Shown: positions 21,301 through 36,300 of the stretch, piece after piece
Layout: each line of letters opens with the position of its first letter
How positions within the stretch are numbered: the stretch's first letter is position 1
From: Bdellovibrionota bacterium
GTDB lineage: Bacteria > Bdellovibrionota_C > UBA2361 > CAKMMH01
NCBI GenBank assembly: GCA_050952645.1
Contig: JBMNLI010000017.1
Location: 32,001-96,000 of the forward strand
Direction: 5' to 3'
Length of the DNA stretch: 64,000 nucleotides
Program-made: the position numbers

Positions 21301-24300
21301 TTAGACTTACAAAACGTTGAACTTCTAGTCGCTCATGAAAGAAAATGGAAAGAATTTCTTTCTAATAATGAAAATTTTGAAGAAGTTTATGCATTTTATA
21401 ATTATAAAGTATATAGATATAAGAATTACGTTAACTCATATTTAATTTCAGGCAATCTGATTGATTTAAAAATTTATGATAACAAATTAGTTTTCACTCC
21501 GCTTACTAAAGAAGTAGTTTTAAAATTTAATTATTTTCCTTTTTTACAAACTAATAATTGTAAAATTACGGAGTTTAAACCTTCAAGATCTATAAAATTT
21601 ATAAAACTTTACGATTGTAATATAAATAAAGAAACCACTTTGGAAGCTAAAAACGCTTTTTTAAGAGTGCTAAACAACTAATAAATATAAAATAAATATT
21701 AAAATGAATAATAAAACAAATAATAATATAAGCGATAACATGAGTAAAAAACAGACAAATAAAAATATAAGTTTTTTAATGATAGCCTTAAAGGCTCTAT
21801 TTTTTGCAGTATTTATAGCTATATTTTATATAGCGATTAAATCTTACACTACAGATAGTTCATTAGAGTTTTTATATAGGCAAGGAGAAATAACCTCTAA
21901 CGTTTGGCGTTTTTTACTCGATTACACGTCAAACTCTTTTTACTCTTGGAGATTTTATAGTAAGCTTTTTAAATTTACATTATTTATTTCTAATGTATTT
22001 TCTATAAATTTTAATACCTGCTTTTACTATATAAACTTATCGTTATTTTTTATTTTCCTTATTCCACTAATAAAACTATTAAATAAGAATTTAAATTTGG
22101 CTACTTCGAGTTTTTTATCATTAAATTTTGTAGTGATGATAATGCTTTTTTTCGGCAATAAAACTTTCTTAATAAGTAGCATTACATTTTTACCATTATT
22201 TATATTCTCATTATTATCGCTATATAAATATAAAGACGAAAAACACGTAATTTTAAATACCCTACTTTTTATATTATCAACGATACTACTAGTAAGGTCG
22301 GCCTACGGGCTATCGTTTTTTTTACATTATTTTCTCTTGCCTAATTTTGCTTTGCCTAACTAGCACTAATACTGCTACTAATGATACTACTAATACCAAT
22401 ACTACTACTAATAATAATACTTATTTAAGAATTGCTAATTTTTTACTAATATTAAGTTTTTGTTATGCCCTTTATTACATTACTTTCTCTGTGCCTTACT
22501 TACCTTCATTTAATTTTCCGTGGTATGCAACTGTAGTTAAAGACGATGGGCTTCTTGGAGTTTTAAGACCTCTTCTTATTGAAAGTAGCCAAATACCTTT
22601 CGTAGATGAAATGAAAGAAAAGAAATTATATGCCCCTTTTCTCCTTTTTCTTTCGTTATATATTTTATTCGTTATCGCTAGATATCTTAAATCTAATGTA
22701 AGCGAAAACAAATATCTTTCTTATTTACTTATATTCTTTCTACTATCTTTTTTAATCGAATGTTTTTTACCTATAAACATTTCTATTATAATGCCATTTA
22801 AGGCCATTTGGCGAACTGTGCCTAGTATTTATACTTTTTCGTTATACCCAATATTTTTATTTTTTATATTATTTACTTTTTTTATTTTTACTATTTTAAA
22901 TTTAAAAAATTTCATATTTATTTATTTATTAAATATTATTTTATCTGTACTCGTTTCTTTTAATAACTTTAAGCCTCTACTTATAAGTGATACTGCAACG
23001 AATTTTATGAGTAATGTTATAAAAGGAGATTTATTAAACTCAGAGTTTAAAAATATAATTCTATCTCCTAGTTCATCGACTATAAAAGCACTAGGATTTC
23101 AATATTTAACTAAAAAGGATATAGTTTTTAATAAAAGAATGCAAAGAAACATAAAAATATTAAACCCTACATTATCTTCTAACTATGGAGAAAACACTTT
23201 AAAACAAATCTTAGATAGAAATCCGAAAAGTCGCTACTCAACATTGAAAACTAGGCAAGATGGAGATGAGTGGATAAAAATAAGTCTTCCTAAATCTTAC
23301 AGCATTCATGGCGTTATACTCGATACGGGAGATTATAGAACCGATTTTCCGACCTCTATTTTAATAACTACTTGTGATGATAAAAAAATAGCAGAGCAAG
23401 TAAACTTAGGTCAGATTGAATACACGAGCTTAGGCTACCCTTATTACGGCGGTCAAAGCAATATGAAAATAGTTTTTGAAGATATCGTAAAGACGGATTG
23501 TATAAAAATATACCAAACGGGCAAAAATAAACATTACGAATGGTCCATAGCTAAAATAAAATTTATTCTTCCAGATATGGAAAGAAAGAAAAATAAAAAA
23601 GATAAAGAAAAAAATAAGAAAGAAAAATAAAAGAAATATCCCCTTTTTCTAAGTCTTAACTCTTAGGTCTTTTAAATGATGATACTACGCCTTTAACTCT
23701 AGACTTAGAAGATGAAGTTAATTTAAATTTTCCCTTGCTTTCTTTTTGTTCTTCAGGTTTTGATTTTTTATCGTTTTTATTTTGACTATCTTTATTATCA
23801 TTATCTTTATTATTATCTTTATTATTATCTTTATTATTATCTTTACTATTATCTTTTTTATTATCTTTATTTTTATTCGATTTTGCTACACTTACAACCG
23901 TTACGCTTTCTTTAACTTCATCATTTTCAGGATAACTTTCAGGATAACTTCCAAAATTATCTGTAATATCTTTAGAAGAAGGAGCCTCTTTAAAATTTTC
24001 ATTATTAGCACTTGCTACTCTAGTAACGTTTCCTTGAAATTTAATCCCTCCTACTAATCCACGCTTAAAACTCGTCTCAGATAAATTTACTGTTTTCTCC
24101 GTTTGTTTCCTTGTTCTATTTTGAGAAGCTTTAGGTTTATCGCTACTACTGCTGCCCCCACTACTCCCCTTATCTTTCTTTTCTTTATTAGTATTTCTTG
24201 AAGGTTTTTTGCTTCTCTCTTGATTATCGCTACTTTCTAACTCTAAGTCTGCCTGTTCTAATGAATAAATTTTTTCATCTACCCATTCTGCTAAACCTAT

Positions 24301-33300: not shown

Positions 33301-36300
33301 CTAAATACTCGGTTTATTGCGACCCGAGTATCGCTAAAAAAGAGGTTTCAATAGTGACTTTAGGAACTATCGATGAAATTGCAGCGGAAATTGAAAGAGA
33401 ACACGGAATTAGAGTAAGAATCGATCACGTAGATAAAGAGGTAAGGTTTTTAGGACGTGGAGAATAAATGGAAAAGAACTCTAAACTTAGAAAGGTTTTA
33501 TAAAGGAGATTTTTTAATATGAGTATCTCAAGACTTCAGAAAGAACGATTATTTCATGATGAAGAGTTGTTTAATGATTTACTAACGTATGCAGAGTATG
33601 ATGAAGATTATAGAATTTTCTTTCATTCAGACACATCTTTTTGGGCCATATTTAGGCTCCAACCTCTAGGAATAACTAAAGTATCTGATAGCGATGCTTT
33701 TGCTACCGCTGATGCAATAAAAGAACTCTTTGATACATTCGATAAGAATATGGCAGTGCAAGTAAACTGGATTACAAGTTTTGAAATCGAAGCTCTTCTT
33801 AAAGAGAACCTAAACTCTTATCCTTTAACGGGGCCTGCTGGTTGGATGGCAAGGCGTTGGATTAGAGCCATTAGAAATGCTTCAAATAGTGCAGAGTTTT
33901 CTCTAAGACCTAAAAAATTAGACTTACTATTTTGTTTTAGATACGACCCACAGTGGAAAAGAAGAGACATAGCTGGGCAACTTGCAGAGGGTATGAGATC
34001 TATTTTTTCATTTTCTTCAAATAATATGTCCGCAGATAGAAGAAGACTAGAATATACAGAGCATGCTAATAAATTTAAAGGGATTATGGAAGGAACTGCT
34101 GCGAAACTTTCAGATTTAGGGTTTAGACCTTATCAATTTGAAGCACAAGATTTAATAGACTTAATGTTCCCTCTTTTAAATAGAAGAAGCACAAAGGGCG
34201 GAAAATACAAACGTGGCAGAAATACTAATGTAGCAGTGCCAGTCTATGACCCATTAGAAATACTTTCAAATCAAATTTCAGAAACTAAAGTTGAGCATCC
34301 TGAAAATGGAATTATAAAGAAAGATGGTAGAGTTTACAGAACTGTTTCTATGGTTCAAACACCTAAACAATGTTTACCTCTTATGATAGCTCCGCTTCAA
34401 TCTGCCTCTTATGAAAATATTTTAAGCGTAACTTACTCTAAAGACACTCAAGAAAAACAATTAAAAAAATTAGACCAAAGAGATGCGATGTTAGGATTTA
34501 GAGAACGAACTGCAAGGGGTAGAGCTAACCAAAAAGTTTTACATCAAATTTCTGCTATTCGTGCAGCTAGAGCAGAACTCTACGCTTCACGTTCTCAAAT
34601 AGTGCGAGTTGGTGTGCACCAAACTTTTATTAGCCAAAACGAAGATGAGGCTAAAAGGGCTTCCGCTGAGGCGATAGCTACAATATCTCAGTTAAATGGA
34701 GCTAGAGGTATGGTGCATGATATTTCAGATTTAGCGACCTTTATCCACTCTCTCCCTGCTATGTACGACCCAGAAATGGATGGCGAAGGCTGGACAGTTA
34801 CTATGCGTTCGTCTAGAGCTGCTAGACTGTTTCCTATTTATGGAAACTGGAGAGGGACTAAAGGAAAACAATTTTTGCTTCCGTCTTTATGGAATAGAGA
34901 ACTAGTAGGATTTGATTTATACGATTCTAACATAGCTCCAAACGTTTTAATAAGTGGAGTTTCAGGTTCTGGAAAAAGTTATTTGCTTTGCTATATGCTT
35001 ATAACGCTAGGCAGAGGGCACTTTGCTTCTCTTCCTAATGGAAGAATGGTTGAAAAACCTCCTATTATATTCGTTTTTGACAAAGGCATGACTGGGCAAC
35101 CTTGCGGCTTTGAAAAAGTTGCAAAATTATTTGGAGGAAGAATTTACGAAGCTACTCCATCAAAAGCACCTGCTATGAACTTTCTTGCTAGACTAGGAAG
35201 AACTGCTCCCGACCCTAGGAATGAAGACTACAAAGACTTAATAGATATGTGTGCAGATATTATATGCAACATGGCAGTCGAGGGAGCTAAGCAACCAGGA
35301 AGACTTGAAAAAAACGTAGTGATAGCCTCTCTAGTTGAAGCGCACAGGCTGTATAGAAACGGCCCTATGAGAAGAGAGTTTATTTTAAGTGATGCCGTTG
35401 CGGTGCTTAGAGCCCCTAAAAGAGTCGATGAAGATGAAGATACTGCAAAACGCAGACAACTAGTAGCGATGCTTATCGCCGATTATTACGGCGATGGAAC
35501 TTACGCAAGGTTCTTTGATAGACCTGGCGCTTTAAAATTACAAGAACGCTTTATAGTATTCGATTTAAAAGCGTTAAGTAGAAACCCAGACCTACAAAGA
35601 GTGTTTTTACAAGTAGCGATGCTTTGGGCAGATACCGTGATGAATGACCCTATGGAATTAGACTCGAGAAAAATATTAGTATTCGACGAGGCACACGACC
35701 TGATAGGTAAAACCGCTTCGGGAACCGTGGAAACTGCATTTAGACTTTACAGAAAAAGAAAAGGTATAGTTATAGCTGCATCTCAATCTGGTGAAGACTT
35801 TTATTTAGGAGAAGGTGGGCAAGCGATAGTTCAAAACAGTGCTCATAAAATTTTCTTAAAACAAGACCCTAGTAAATTTCATATGACTGCAAAGGCTTTT
35901 AATTTAACTCCGCAACAAGCAGACGTAATATTAAGGCTTCATACGATAAAAGGATTAGAGTCGCAATTTTATTTAATATCAGACATAGGCGAGTCGGCTC
36001 TCGTGCTTCCATTAGAGCCAGCATTTTATTGGGTAAGCACCAACAATGGTGATGATAACCAAATGTTTGCAGATATGTTAAAACAAAACAATGAAAACTT
36101 TTTAAAAACATTAGAGCAAATAGTTGCTACTGCTCCAAATGGAGCACACGTTTTTAAAAGCAGAATGGATTTAAATAGAGAAAATAGAATAAACAATTTA
36201 AACAGTTATATTGATGATATGGAGAGATAAGAAAAATGAGATTAAATATAAAAAATATTATTTGTGCTATATTGTTAATGCTACTATGTGCTTGCACTGC

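What a model noticed while it worked through the whole genome (the two positions that open the first line are those of the whole stretch)
23656..36230. Relaxase-less F-type type IV secretion core conserved across the order
C17:55656-68230 encodes a coupling protein (g01368, DotL/TraD-like) and, in F-plasmid order, TraE (g01372), TraK (g01373), TraB/VirB10 (g01374), TraV (g01375) and the VirB4 ATPase TraC (g01377) among unknown small genes. No relaxase family is found anywhere in the genome and no replication or integrase gene in the locus, and the TraC and TraB families occur in 75 and 79 of 90 order genomes. It is a vertically kept chromosomal machine rather than a conjugative element, a candidate for delivery of protein or DNA to prey or host.
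Evidence so far: Pfam hits: TraG-D_C, TraE (1.5e-6), TraK_C (1.3e-4), TrbI (9e-14), TraV (7e-3), TraC_F_IV (5e-14); no name beginning Mob, Relax or TrwC in pfam.tsv. relatives.tsv counts.
(Added by a program. Inside this text positions count along the whole contig: contig position 32,001 is position 1 of the stretch shown here. "Call 12" and the like, gene names such as g00115 and contig names such as C1 are that model's own, and its searches are not shown. The text may have been shortened before it was handed on; [...] marks where a part breaks off. The agent that wrote the report below was given it as the finding of a first reader that could run no searches.)

Follow-up and report, generated by a model that had tools for sequence, protein, structure and literature searches.

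The report
Host-owned F-like secretion machine, lineage-wide
An uncultured Bdellovibrio-related lineage keeps, in nearly every genome, a stripped-down chromosomal relative of the F-plasmid DNA-transfer machine, so the machine now seems to serve the cell rather than a mobile element.

Summary
The traE-K-B-V-C genes and the coupling ATPase are real. They lie between housekeeping genes. No integrase gene was found in the window, and none of six relaxase Pfam families was found in the genome.

- **Distribution:** the TraC orthologue occurs in 121 of 124 genomes of the whole GTDB phylum-level lineage, and in 73 of 73 high-quality ones. Its identity falls in step with taxonomy.
- **Isolation:** the nearest outside full-length relative among 1.84 billion representative proteins is 29% identical.
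- **Operon:** the conserved unit is larger than the finding. Nine genes run from 28746 to 36529, usually followed by an SH3/M23 pair and preceded by a divergent pair.

Three corrections:

1. The 636-aa protein upstream of the coupling ATPase has a relaxase-like fold. It combines an HD-type domain with a TraI_2_C-like domain, and both solved MOBH structures are among its hits. It lacks the catalytic motifs, so "relaxase-less" is true for sequence only.
2. A second, VirD4-type coupling ATPase is kept in 110 of 124 genomes.
3. A TraG/VirB6-like operon lies on another contig.

The function is untested. I favour contact-dependent protein export over DNA export. The scan found this system before in three other genomes.

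The parts
23656..26058 (-). Coupling ATPase (T4CP), 800 aa, of the SXT-TraD / DotL-TrbC type. It has 2 N-terminal TM segments and intact Walker A (AKTGVGKT) and Walker B (LVIIDE). The C-terminal ~200 aa form a low-complexity tail.
   Evidence: Pfam TraG-D_C 4.6e-8. NCBIfam TrbC_conju 1.1e-14 and SXT_TraD 1.5e-14. Best solved relative is DotL/IcmO 6sz9, E 8.8e-16. Motifs. Matches in 114 of 124 lineage genomes at E<=1e-20, two of them at only 28-35% identity.
26099..28009 (-). 636-aa membrane protein (3 TM) directly upstream of the T4CP. Its soluble part combines an HD-superfamily-like domain with a TraI_2_C-like winged-helix domain. This is MobH (MOBH3)-like by fold, and it carries no catalytic motifs.
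   Evidence: TM segments. AF2 of residues 165-636 gave pLDDT 80.9 and pTM 0.79. VIA-align hits: YhaM Z 8.8, PPX 8.0, HD hydrolase 2pq7 7.9, Cas3-HD 7.8, 2ipq (TraI_2_C) 7.4, 3kq5 7.3 (full-length model). hhalign against TraI_2 is negative. No strictly conserved Tyr or His. Adjacent to the T4SS in 36 of 48 loci.
28010..28745 (.). AT-rich divergent intergenic region between the two transcription units. In the gonococcal island the oriT lies at this position.
   Evidence: Only weak AT-rich palindromes and no convincing inverted repeat. No pilin-like small ORF.
28746..29135 (+). 129-aa secreted, hydrophilic helical protein. It is the first gene of the operon, in the traA position, but it is not pilin-like.
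   Evidence: Signal peptide and no further hydrophobic segment. Present in 48 of 48 loci with enough upstream DNA. No T4SS-related Pfam family in 9 orthologues; one chance-level Holin_2-3 row at E 0.01. dN/dS 0.07-0.10.
29254..29664 (+). 136-aa protein with a two-helix membrane hairpin. It sits in the traL/VirB3 position directly before traE.
   Evidence: TM 27-45 and 47-65. In 48 of 48 loci. No TraL Pfam hit in 11 orthologues or in the genome. The assignment rests on position and topology only.
29678..30337 (+). TraE (VirB8-like bitopic inner-membrane subunit)
   Evidence: Pfam TraE 1.5e-6, above the cut-off. TIGR02761 1.5e-6. In 48 of 48 loci.
30414..31238 (+). TraK (VirB9-like outer-membrane core subunit)
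   Evidence: TraK_C 1.3e-4, below the cut-off. TIGR02756 1.2e-4. TraK_C hits 8 of 11 orthologues. In 48 of 48 loci.
31258..32439 (+). TraB (VirB10-like envelope-spanning subunit)
   Evidence: TrbI 8.9e-13. F-plasmid TraB structures 7spb/7okn, E 6.6e-9. In 48 of 48 loci.
32472..32957 (+). TraV lipoprotein (VirB7-like)
   Evidence: TraV 7.3e-3, below the cut-off. Hits 10 of 11 orthologues, 3 at or above the cut-off. Lipobox FSGC.
33006..33467 (+). 153-aa lipoprotein of unknown family, possibly DotD/N0-like
   Evidence: Lipobox LVSC. In 47 of 48 loci. Weak DotD hits in 2 of 10 orthologues, E 0.035-0.048. Profile against PDB gives DotD at E 0.94, not significant.
33519..36230 (+). TraC (VirB4 ATPase) with intact Walker A and B
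   Evidence: TraC_F_IV 1.1e-13. TIGR02746 1.2e-56. Motifs. In 121 of 124 genomes. dN/dS 0.04.
36236..36529 (+). 97-aa lipoprotein of unknown family, always directly after traC
   Evidence: Lipobox LCAC. In 60 of 60 loci with enough downstream DNA. dN/dS 0.07-0.09.
36700..37638 (+). Two small membrane proteins: 115 aa of unknown family, and 175 aa with a bacterial PH domain. Both are variably detected downstream.
   Evidence: bPH_2 2.4e-9. By tblastn, the bPH protein is found in 34 of 60 loci and the 115-aa protein in 12 of 60.
37690..39277 (+). Overlapping pair: an SH3-domain protein (373 aa) and an M23 peptidoglycan endopeptidase (166 aa). Candidate cell-wall remodelling or attack module.
   Evidence: SH3_3 2.4e-10 and Peptidase_M23 3e-35. 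SH3 in 57 of 60 loci and M23 in 51 of 60.

Best explanation
This is a host-domesticated type IV secretion system. It descends from an F-type mating-pair apparatus of the kind that travels with a MobH relaxase and a TraD-type coupling protein, as in SXT/R391, IncA/C-like plasmids and the gonococcal island. It has been inherited vertically since before this uncultured Bdellovibrio-related lineage diversified.

**Proposed working (inferred from homology).**
- TraV, TraK and TraB build the outer-membrane core.
- TraE, the TraL-position hairpin protein and the TraC ATPase build the inner-membrane base.
- A TraG/VirB6-like protein encoded elsewhere supplies the channel or stalk.
- The SH3/M23 pair opens peptidoglycan.
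- No pilin and no pilus-assembly set is present, so the machine is probably short and acts on contact.
- Two coupling ATPases feed it: the TraD/DotL-like one in the window and an orphan VirD4-like one.
- The membrane-anchored MobH-like protein next to the first has lost the nuclease motifs. It most likely serves as an adaptor or gate on that ATPase, not as a nickase.

I think the cargo is most likely protein, delivered into another cell (prey bacterium or eukaryotic host).

**Odds by sub-claim.** Domesticated and vertical: about 0.9. The 636-aa protein descends from a MobH relaxase: about 0.55. The cargo is protein and not DNA: about 0.4 to 0.45.
For: **Vertical and host-owned.**
- TraC is in 121 of 124 genomes and 73 of 73 high-quality ones, with identity tiers that follow taxonomy.
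- The lineage's TraC rows (37 of the 37 ingroup rows used, against 13 outside rows) form one clade with 100% SH-aLRT on a long stem (quick tree).
- Among 1.84 billion representatives, the own cluster scores 1440 bits and the next full-length hit is 29% identical at 207 bits.
- The 25 best plasmid TraC places listed are 21-26% identical; none of the 3492 records with a match reaches 60%.
- Of 48 loci with at least 9 kb upstream of traC, seven operon genes (129-aa gene to traV, plus traC) are in 48 and the two flanking lipoprotein genes in 47 each. The thrS, rodA and HAD flanks are not conserved.
- dN/dS is 0.04-0.25 for all 14 genes computed.
- The window shows housekeeping flanks and no integrase.

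**Not conjugative by sequence.**

**ATPases intact.**

**Ancestry.**
- TraC scores best with the F-type model, and TraB matches F TraB structures.
- The T4CP matches SXT_TraD and DotL.
- An MPF_F/MOBH plasmid has the order mobH-traD-...-traL-E-K-B-V-dsbC-traC.
- In the gonococcal island, TraD and TraI stand beside ltgX-traA-L-E-K-B-dsbC-V-C, the region is read in two directions, and oriT lies between the two putative operons (PMC4207684, passages).

**MobH-like fold.**
- The top of the domain search is dominated by HD-superfamily chains.
- Both solved MOBH structures, 3KQ5 and 2IPQ, are among 48,161 chains at ranks 11 and 10. The paper identifies them as MOBH3 members that lack the motifs (PMC6736028, passages).

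**More parts elsewhere.**
- A VirD4-type T4CP (PF02534 3.4e-38) is in 110 of 124 genomes.
- The TraG_N-like family is in 107 of 124.
- In two genomes of family f10 it lies inside the T4SS cluster.
Against: - No substrate, target or expression data exist. The lineage has no cultured member among the 80 titles seen.
- The relaxase-like reading rests on moderate fold scores (Z 7-9). That range can arise by chance for helical domains (tool notes). Foldseek found nothing at E<=1e-3. Profile-profile comparison with 16 TraI_2 proteins gave probability 0.08%.
- Some sub-lineages keep TraC but lack the window-type T4CP: G007, G008, G082, G084, G085, G091, G092. That coupling protein is therefore dispensable there.
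- One single-contig genome (G024, 82% complete) gave no match to TraC or to either T4CP, so the machine is not essential for all members.
- A DotL-like T4CP also serves plain conjugation in IncI plasmids (recalled), so it does not by itself indicate protein cargo.
- dS is saturated (1.2-2.7), so the dN/dS values are rough.
Confidence: 0.5

Rival explanations
1. It is a chromosomal DNA-export or DNA-exchange machine like the gonococcal genetic island. The 636-aa MobH-like protein still nicks DNA with a non-canonical active site. The TraD-like ATPase then pumps single-stranded chromosomal DNA out, or into kin, for gene exchange within the population.
For: - The layout matches the gonococcal island, where the relaxase and coupling protein stand beside the traL-E-K-B-V-C block, the region is read in two directions, and oriT lies between the two putative operons.
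- The fold resembles MOBH proteins.
- The gonococcal TraI is membrane-associated through an N-terminal helix, and pilin TraA is not needed for secretion there (PMC6736028 and PMC4207684, passages).
- The motif around residues 177-185 is very conserved.
Against: - The alternative 3H and HD motifs that are essential for TraI cleavage in vitro are absent.
- The best candidate Tyr (Y183) is Phe in 5 of 25 orthologues, and 3 of them have no neighbouring Tyr. The only invariant His of the first alignment is Gln or Arg in 2 of 25.
- No convincing inverted repeat lies in the intergenic region.
- The gonococcal system needs TraW, U, N, F, H and G. Of these, TraU, TraH, TraN and TraW were searched here and not found.
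Confidence: 0.22
2. It is a non-secreting or import device: an envelope-spanning scaffold used for adhesion or attachment to other cells, or for DNA uptake as in the Helicobacter ComB system.
For: - No pilin and no relaxase sequence family were found.
- Some sub-lineages lack the window-type T4CP yet keep TraC.
Against: - Two different coupling ATPases are each kept in at least 110 of 124 genomes with intact motifs. Coupling proteins are the substrate-export receptors, and ComB-type uptake systems lack them (recalled).
- G091 (80% complete) and G084 (86% complete) have TraC but gave no match to either T4CP.
Confidence: 0.1
3. It is a decaying or cryptic integrative conjugative element that happens to be common.
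For: - The genes are homologous to conjugation genes.
- A tRNA-Leu gene lies 4.4 kb from the T4CP end.
Against: - It is present in 121 of 124 genomes with taxonomy-tracking identity.
- dN/dS is 0.04-0.25 and the TraC matches show no internal stops in nearly all genomes.
- There is no integrase.
- Canonical relaxases are sporadic, at 12 and 3 of 91 genomes.
- No close copy exists on any of 72,556 plasmids.
Confidence: 0.02

Closest known systems
F-type (MPF_F) T4SS that travel with MOBH relaxases: the SXT/R391- and IncA/C-like plasmid branch (example NZ_AP018396.1) and the gonococcal genetic island
   Same: The core order traL(position)-traE-traK-traB-traV-x-traC is the same. TraC scores best with the F-type model. 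The T4CP is TraD-type and is preceded by a relaxase-position gene. That pair stands beside the core operon as TraD and TraI do in the gonococcal island, where the region is read in two directions.
   Different: - No pilin was seen, and TraU, TraH, TraN and TraW were not found in this genome.
- The relaxase-position protein has no TraI_2 sequence signal and no 3H or HD motifs.
- TraC is at most about 29% identical to any outside full-length representative listed.
- The cluster is chromosomal, single-copy and lineage-wide, not mobile.
- An extra VirD4-type T4CP is present.
Patescibacteria T4SS (PMC12102498, abstract and outline read)
   Same: A phylogenetically distinct, chromosomal T4SS that is widespread across a whole uncultured lineage, mostly lacks a relaxase, and was proposed to be co-opted for a host-dependent lifestyle.
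   Different: That system derives from the monoderm MPF_FATA class. This one derives from the diderm F type, with the TraV/K/B outer-membrane core.
Dot/Icm (T4B) and the Rickettsiales vir homologue systems, both lineage-wide effector translocators (recalled)
   Same: They are vertically kept across an order, lack a relaxase, and use a DotL-like coupling protein (sequence match to DotL at 8.8e-16). Tandem VirB6-like paralogues, as in rvhB6a-e, recall the 4-6 tandem TraG_N-like genes in sister orders.
   Different: The channel genes here are F-type, not T4B or P-type. No DotM-like partner was recognised. The DotD resemblance of the 153-aa lipoprotein is not significant.
MOBH3 clade proteins (3KQ5 of Coxiella, 2IPQ of Salmonella STY4665)
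   Same: The 636-aa protein shares the two-domain plan of an HD-like domain plus a TraI_2_C-like domain. It also shares the absence of the 3H and HD motifs, which the literature reads as an alternative function.
   Different: It has three N-terminal transmembrane helices. It shows no detectable sequence or profile similarity to TraI_2. Fold scores are only moderate.

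Membership tests
MPF_F (F-type) type IV secretion system | VirB4 ATPase of the TraC/F-type clade | tested here: met
   TIGR02746 TraC-F-type 1.2e-56 (192 bits) is the best of 8 VirB4-type models, but far below its 567-bit equivalog cut-off. Pfam TraC_F_IV is above its cut-off. The protein sits on a deep, isolated branch.
MPF_F (F-type) type IV secretion system | Core genes TraE, TraK, TraB and TraV in F order | tested here: met
   TraK and TraV are mostly below the Pfam cut-offs, but they hit 8 of 11 and 10 of 11 orthologues.
MPF_F (F-type) type IV secretion system | TraL (VirB3-like) and TraA pilin | tested here: inconclusive
   A 2-TM hairpin protein sits in the traL position. 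It has no TraL hit in 11 orthologues or in the genome. The traA-position protein is hydrophilic. No pilin-like small ORF lies in the intergenic region. The TraA Pfam family was not searched genome-wide.
MPF_F (F-type) type IV secretion system | F-specific assembly and stabilisation set (TraU, TraH, TraN, TraW, TraF, TrbC) | tested here: not met
   TraU, TraH, TraN and TraW_N gave no match at E<=1 in the own genome, which is 93.75% complete. TraU is in 1 of 61 relatives. TraF and TrbC were not searched.
MPF_F (F-type) type IV secretion system | TraG (VirB6-like N-terminal region) | tested here: inconclusive
   TraG_N gives 26 bits against a 36.1-bit cut-off on contig C4. The 704/705-aa orthologues in G019 and G017 give 5.5e-6, cover profile positions 202-458, and lie inside the T4SS cluster.
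Conjugative element (plasmid or ICE) | A relaxase of a known MOB family | tested here: not met
   Six Pfam relaxase families gave no match in the own genome. They are sporadic or not found in relatives. MOBC and MOBB models were not searched.
Conjugative element (plasmid or ICE) | Integrase or replication gene, and a patchy, mobile distribution | tested here: not met
   None is in the window. TraC is in 121 of 124 genomes with taxonomy-tracking identity. No close plasmid copy exists.
MOBH relaxase (for the 636-aa protein) | Sequence match to TraI_2 (PF07514) | tested here: not met
   No match at E<=1 in the genome. hhalign probability is 0.07-0.08%.
MOBH relaxase (for the 636-aa protein) | Alternative 3H motif and HD motif (MOBH1/2) | tested here: not met
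   TraI_2 invariants HHH and HD-GK have no counterpart. One near-invariant His is the only one, and it varies in 2 of 25 orthologues. The MOBH3 clade also lacks these motifs.
MOBH relaxase (for the 636-aa protein) | HD-type fold followed by a TraI_2_C fold | tested here: inconclusive
   VIA-align Z is 7.3-8.8 to HD-superfamily chains and to 3KQ5 and 2IPQ. Foldseek found nothing at E<=1e-3.
MOBH relaxase (for the 636-aa protein) | Gene directly upstream of a TraD-type coupling protein, next to an F-type core | tested here: met
Dot/Icm-type (T4B) coupling complex | DotL-like T4CP with a DotM-like partner | tested here: inconclusive
   The T4CP matches DotL at 8.8e-16. The neighbouring protein gave no DotM signal by profile or fold.

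The most novel reading that the evidence does not exclude
This is an effector-translocating machine derived from the F-type (MPF_F) class. If so, I know of no earlier case; as of 2012 only MPF_T and MPF_I systems had been shown to deliver proteins (PMC3548315, passage). It has been fixed for the whole history of a phylum-level lineage. Its MobH relaxase has been converted into a catalytically dead, membrane-anchored adaptor. Two different coupling ATPases sort two cargo classes into prey or host cells. The tandem, C-terminally variable TraG/VirB6-like proteins act as exchangeable tips or translocated cargo.
Probability: 0.3. Interest if true: 0.85.

Novelty: new variant of a known kind. Interest (0 to 1): 0.72.

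Why it matters
Type IV secretion systems that work for the cell and not for a plasmid are known mainly from the P-type (VirB) and Dot/Icm classes. A 2012 survey states that only those two classes had been shown to deliver proteins (PMC3548315, passage).

This system would add three things:
- **A third route of domestication.** An F-type core has been kept by selection across 121 of 124 species-level genomes of an unstudied lineage.
- **A possible fate for a relaxase.** The relaxase may be retained as a motif-less structural part once conjugation is lost.
- **A marker and an entry point.** It is a conserved surface machine for working out whether these uncultured bacteria are predators, epibionts or symbionts.

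In my searches the name UBA2361 occurs in 4 papers. The search listing and start of abstract show none about its biology, but I read passages only in PMC13200544.

Tried and rejected
- **DotM-like partner.** I first guessed that the 636-aa protein is a DotM/TrbA analogue of the DotL-like T4CP. A profile against PDB gave 0 hits at E<=10. Pfam on 16 members gave only chance-level rows. Foldseek gave nothing at E<=1e-3. No DotM row appeared in the VIA lists. Not supported.
- **Catalytic tyrosine.** Y183 in GNGRLFYSG looked invariant in 16 sequences. It is Phe in 5 of 25 orthologues. Rejected as a strict catalytic residue.
- **Remote homologues of the 636-aa family.** The word-indexed search found 12 proteins, all of its own family and none with a Pfam domain. 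The Atlas gave no usable feature hit, and its own model is poor, with pTM 0.20.
- **oriT.** The region 28000-28760 holds only AT-rich palindromes at 73-90% complementarity.
- **Helicase at 54465-56510 as a relaxase helicase.** It is HelD-like, matching NF041464 at 1.6e-57. Rejected.
- **DotD for the 153-aa lipoprotein.** It hits 2 of 10 orthologues at E 0.035-0.048. The profile gives E 0.94. Left open.
- **TraL by family search.** The best hit is E 0.034 inside a 1448-aa frame. This is noise.
- **Conserved neighbours of the VirD4-type T4CP.** None were found in 11 loci.
- **Promoter and terminator scan.** Counts were no higher than in shuffles.
- **RNA evidence.** No RNA holder was listed.
- **Binding of the 636-aa protein to the T4CP.** The complex-prediction job was never accepted because the queue was full, so nothing was learned.
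- **Literature searches that found no description of this system.**
  - Bdellovibrionota plus type IV secretion: 8 papers. In PMC12428579 the terms occur only in the reference list.
  - PMC11656739 has 0 occurrences of conjuga, type IV or secretion system.
  - Bdellovibrio/TraC/TraB/F-type: none relevant among the 15 of 143 listed.
  - Bdellovibrionota_B: 9 papers.
  - UBA2361: 4 papers.
  - Supplements were not opened.

Full report
**What is there.**

The window has about 31% G+C throughout, with no sharp compositional island at the locus. On the minus strand lie a 636-aa membrane protein (26099-28009) and, downstream of it, an 800-aa coupling ATPase (23656-26058). Diverging from them on the plus strand are nine tightly packed genes (28746-36529). 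Two small membrane proteins follow, then an overlapping SH3/M23-peptidase pair that ends at 39277.

- Pfam and NCBIfam confirm TraE, TraB (TrbI) and TraC above their cut-offs. TraK and TraV fall below theirs.
- The weak names hold up in orthologues. TraK_C hits 8 of 11 diverse orthologues and TraV hits 10 of 11, three at or above the cut-off.
- TraB matches the solved F-plasmid TraB at 6.6e-9.
- TraC and the coupling ATPase keep Walker A and B motifs.
- TraV and two unknown proteins (153 aa and 97 aa) have lipoboxes.
- The gene in the traL position is a two-helix hairpin. The gene in the traA position is a secreted hydrophilic protein, not a pilin.
- The flanks are housekeeping genes: mreBCD, PBP2, rodA, thrS and dxs. 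No integrase, transposase or replication gene was seen.
- One tRNA-Leu gene lies at 19208-19293.

**How far it is conserved.**

All 80 related loci fetched come from metagenome-assembled genomes. They are labelled Bdellovibrionota, Bdellovibrionales, Oligoflexia or Deltaproteobacteria.

- Pfam TraC_F_IV is found in 89 of 91 genomes of the order, 55 of 55 high-quality ones.
- The held GTDB phylum of this genome has only 124 genomes, all of one class. The TraC protein finds an orthologue in 121 of them, 73 of 73 high-quality ones.
- TraC identity is 90% in the genus, 86% in the family, 62-70% for full-length matches in the order and 54-61% in other orders. The misses are G024, G078 and G122.
- In a quick maximum-likelihood tree of 37 lineage TraC rows and 13 outside rows, the lineage forms one clade with 100% SH-aLRT on a very long stem. 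About half of the available ingroup rows were left out for speed.
- Against 1.84 billion representative proteins, the own cluster scores 1440 bits. The next full-length protein scores 207 bits at 29% identity. The nearest outsiders are unnamed metagenome "TraC" proteins, one from a Planctomycetota MAG.
- On 72,556 plasmids, no match reaches 60% identity. The listed best matches are 21-26% identical.

Synteny is strong.

- Of 48 loci with at least 9 kb upstream of traC, seven operon genes (the 129-aa gene to traV, plus traC) are present in 48. The two flanking lipoprotein genes are present in 47 each.
- The divergent pair is adjacent in 35 (T4CP) and 36 (636-aa gene) of the 48.
- Of 60 loci with at least 5 kb downstream, the 97-aa lipoprotein is in 60, SH3 in 57 and M23 in 51.
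- The housekeeping neighbours are not conserved.
- Nei-Gojobori dN/dS against two close relatives is 0.04 (TraC) to 0.25 (SH3) for the 14 genes computed. dS is saturated, and the 636-aa gene could not be paired.

This pattern indicates an old, vertically inherited, selected host trait.

**Relaxases.**

In the own genome (93.75% complete), Relaxase, TrwC, MobA_MobL, TraI_2, Mob_Pre and Rep_trans gave nothing. In the order, Relaxase occurs in 12 of 91 genomes and TrwC in 3 of 91, unrelated to the 89 of 91 for TraC. TraI_2 was found in 0 of 61 relatives.

**The gene in the relaxase position.**

- The 636-aa family has no Pfam, PDB-sequence or remote-sequence relatives.
- An AlphaFold model of residues 165-636, built on 25 sequences, is confident, with pLDDT 80.9 and pTM 0.79.
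- Foldseek finds nothing significant.
- An all-against-48,161-chains alignment is dominated by HD-superfamily proteins for the first domain: YhaM Z 8.8, exopolyphosphatase C-domains 8.0, HD hydrolase 2pq7 7.9 and Cas3-HD 7.8.
- For the second domain it lists the TraI_2_C domain 2IPQ (Z 7.4, 115 of 121 residues aligned), a SaPI Rep C-domain (7.1) and the pCW3 relaxosome protein TcpK (6.9). It also lists 3KQ5 at Z 7.3. The full-length model gave the same picture.
- According to PMC6736028 (passages read), 3KQ5 and 2IPQ are the two solved members of the MOBH relaxase family. MOBH relaxases consist of an HD-type TraI_2 domain plus TraI_2_C. A subset is membrane-associated. The MOBH3 clade, to which both structures belong, lacks the 3H and HD motifs, "suggesting an alternative function".

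Gene order agrees with this reading. An MPF_F/MOBH plasmid reads mobH-traD-...-traL-E-K-B-V-dsbC-traC. In the gonococcal island, TraD and TraI stand beside the ltgX-traA-L-E-K-B block. That region is read in two directions, and oriT lies between the two putative operons (PMC4207684, passages). The window's T4CP scores equally with SXT-type TraD and IncI TrbC/DotL models and matches DotL in the PDB.

Against a working relaxase:

- Profile-profile comparison with 16 TraI_2 proteins is negative.
- The TraI_2 invariants are absent.
- The most conserved Tyr is Phe in 5 of 25 orthologues.
- No oriT-like repeat is evident.

I therefore read this protein as a probable descendant of a MobH relaxase that no longer cuts DNA. 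The Z scores are in a range where chance resemblance is possible, so I put this at about 0.55.

**Parts outside the window.**

- A weak TraG_N signal led to contig C4. It holds an operon of 443-, 595-, 202- and 1037-aa proteins. The last is TraG_N-like at 8.1e-5.
- Next to it lies a canonical VirD4-type coupling ATPase, with T4SS-DNA_transf 3.4e-38 and TrwB_AAD_bind 9.7e-26.
- The VirD4-type protein has orthologues in 110 of 124 genomes, 67 of 73 high-quality ones, at 55-82% identity. It has no conserved neighbours.
- The window-type T4CP has matches in 114 of 124 genomes at E<=1e-20. Two of these, at 28-35% identity, are other kinds of T4CP. Among genomes with TraC, only G084 and G091 gave no match to either T4CP.
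- The TraG_N-like family is in 107 of 124 genomes. In the other orders it occurs as 4-6 tandem copies, each preceded by a 202-aa-like gene.
- In two genomes of family f10, a five-gene block lies between the 636-aa gene and the operon. It ends with a fused 202-like/TraG_N-like gene, which ties this module to the machine. One gene of that block reaches the TraU cut-off in G017.
- TraU is otherwise not found: 1 of 61 relatives and none in the own genome. TraH, TraN and TraW are likewise not found in the own genome.

**Reading.**

The machine is a pilus-less, reduced F-lineage T4SS with two coupling ATPases. It is owned by the host.

- The homology-based assembly model (TraV/K/B outer core, TraE/TraL-like/TraC base, TraG-like channel) is inferred. 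It draws on the F-plasmid core structure, seen here only as the abstract of PMC8770708 in a search listing.
- The cargo is unknown.
- I favour proteins for three reasons. The nuclease motifs are gone. Two receptors are kept. Lineage-wide relaxase-free T4SSs known so far are effector systems or, in Patescibacteria, essential for epibiotic growth (PMC12102498, abstract).
- DNA export of the gonococcal kind remains a serious rival.

**Prior art.**

My searches found no paper on this system. PMC13200544 (passages) says that GTDB R226 moved the classes UBA2361 and Oligoflexia into Bdellovibrionota_B. One MAG name hints at that phylum, but I could not verify the name of this lineage.

The scan itself had already noted the same system in three other genomes. 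I saw those notes after my own analysis, and they agree on the 121-species spread and on a second site.

Noticed in passing
window 56625-59669 (-) and 54465-56510 (+): A 1014-aa soluble ATPase with no TM segments has weak coupling-protein/HerA signals: TrwB_AAD_bind 1.9e-6, DUF87 7e-7, PADLOC mad8 2.6e-14 and CedD 2e-6. It lies next to a HelD-like RNA-polymerase recycling helicase (NF041464 1.6e-57). It may be a third T4CP-like protein or a defence or DNA-translocation ATPase.
   Followed up: partly
window 39396-39413 and 39557-39574 (-): The same 18-nt hairpin plus T-run (CTCACGTTTAAGGGTGGG TTTTAGATCT) occurs twice, 161 nt apart, in the M23-thrS intergenic region. It may be a small repeat element.
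   Followed up: no
window 19441-23630 (+): Three multi-pass membrane proteins follow tRNA-Leu: 746 aa with 10 TM, 219 aa with 5 TM, and 427 aa with 5 TM plus a weak F5/8 type C domain. They lie between the tRNA and the T4CP. Only the last is seen next to the T4SS, and only in the two closest relatives, L001 and L003.
   Followed up: partly
window 23656-24260 (C-terminal ~200 aa of the T4CP): The tail is long, low-complexity and rich in Lys, Asn, Asp and Ser, with DNKKDN-type repeats. Most relatives have open frames of 690-760 aa, and their similarity to the query mostly ends near residue 640.
   Followed up: no
G024 (single contig, 2.3 Mb, 82% complete by markers): This one genome of the order gave no match to TraC or to either T4CP. 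It keeps a TraG_N-like protein at 33% identity. It is a natural loss lineage, useful for finding co-lost genes.
   Followed up: no
L108 (G100:C7:38000-57999) and other sister-order genomes: Five tandem pairs of a 202-aa-like gene and a TraG_N-like gene. The similarity to the query is confined to a short central region, about residues 220-510. This recalls the tandem VirB6 paralogues of Rickettsiales (recalled).
   Followed up: partly
window 1941-3479 (-) and 3615-4457 (-): A PilB/GspE-type ATPase (T2SSE 2.3e-83) lies next to a protein with bacterial thrombospondin-3 repeats. This is a separate pilus or secretion system and is not a VirB11 of the T4SS.
   Followed up: no
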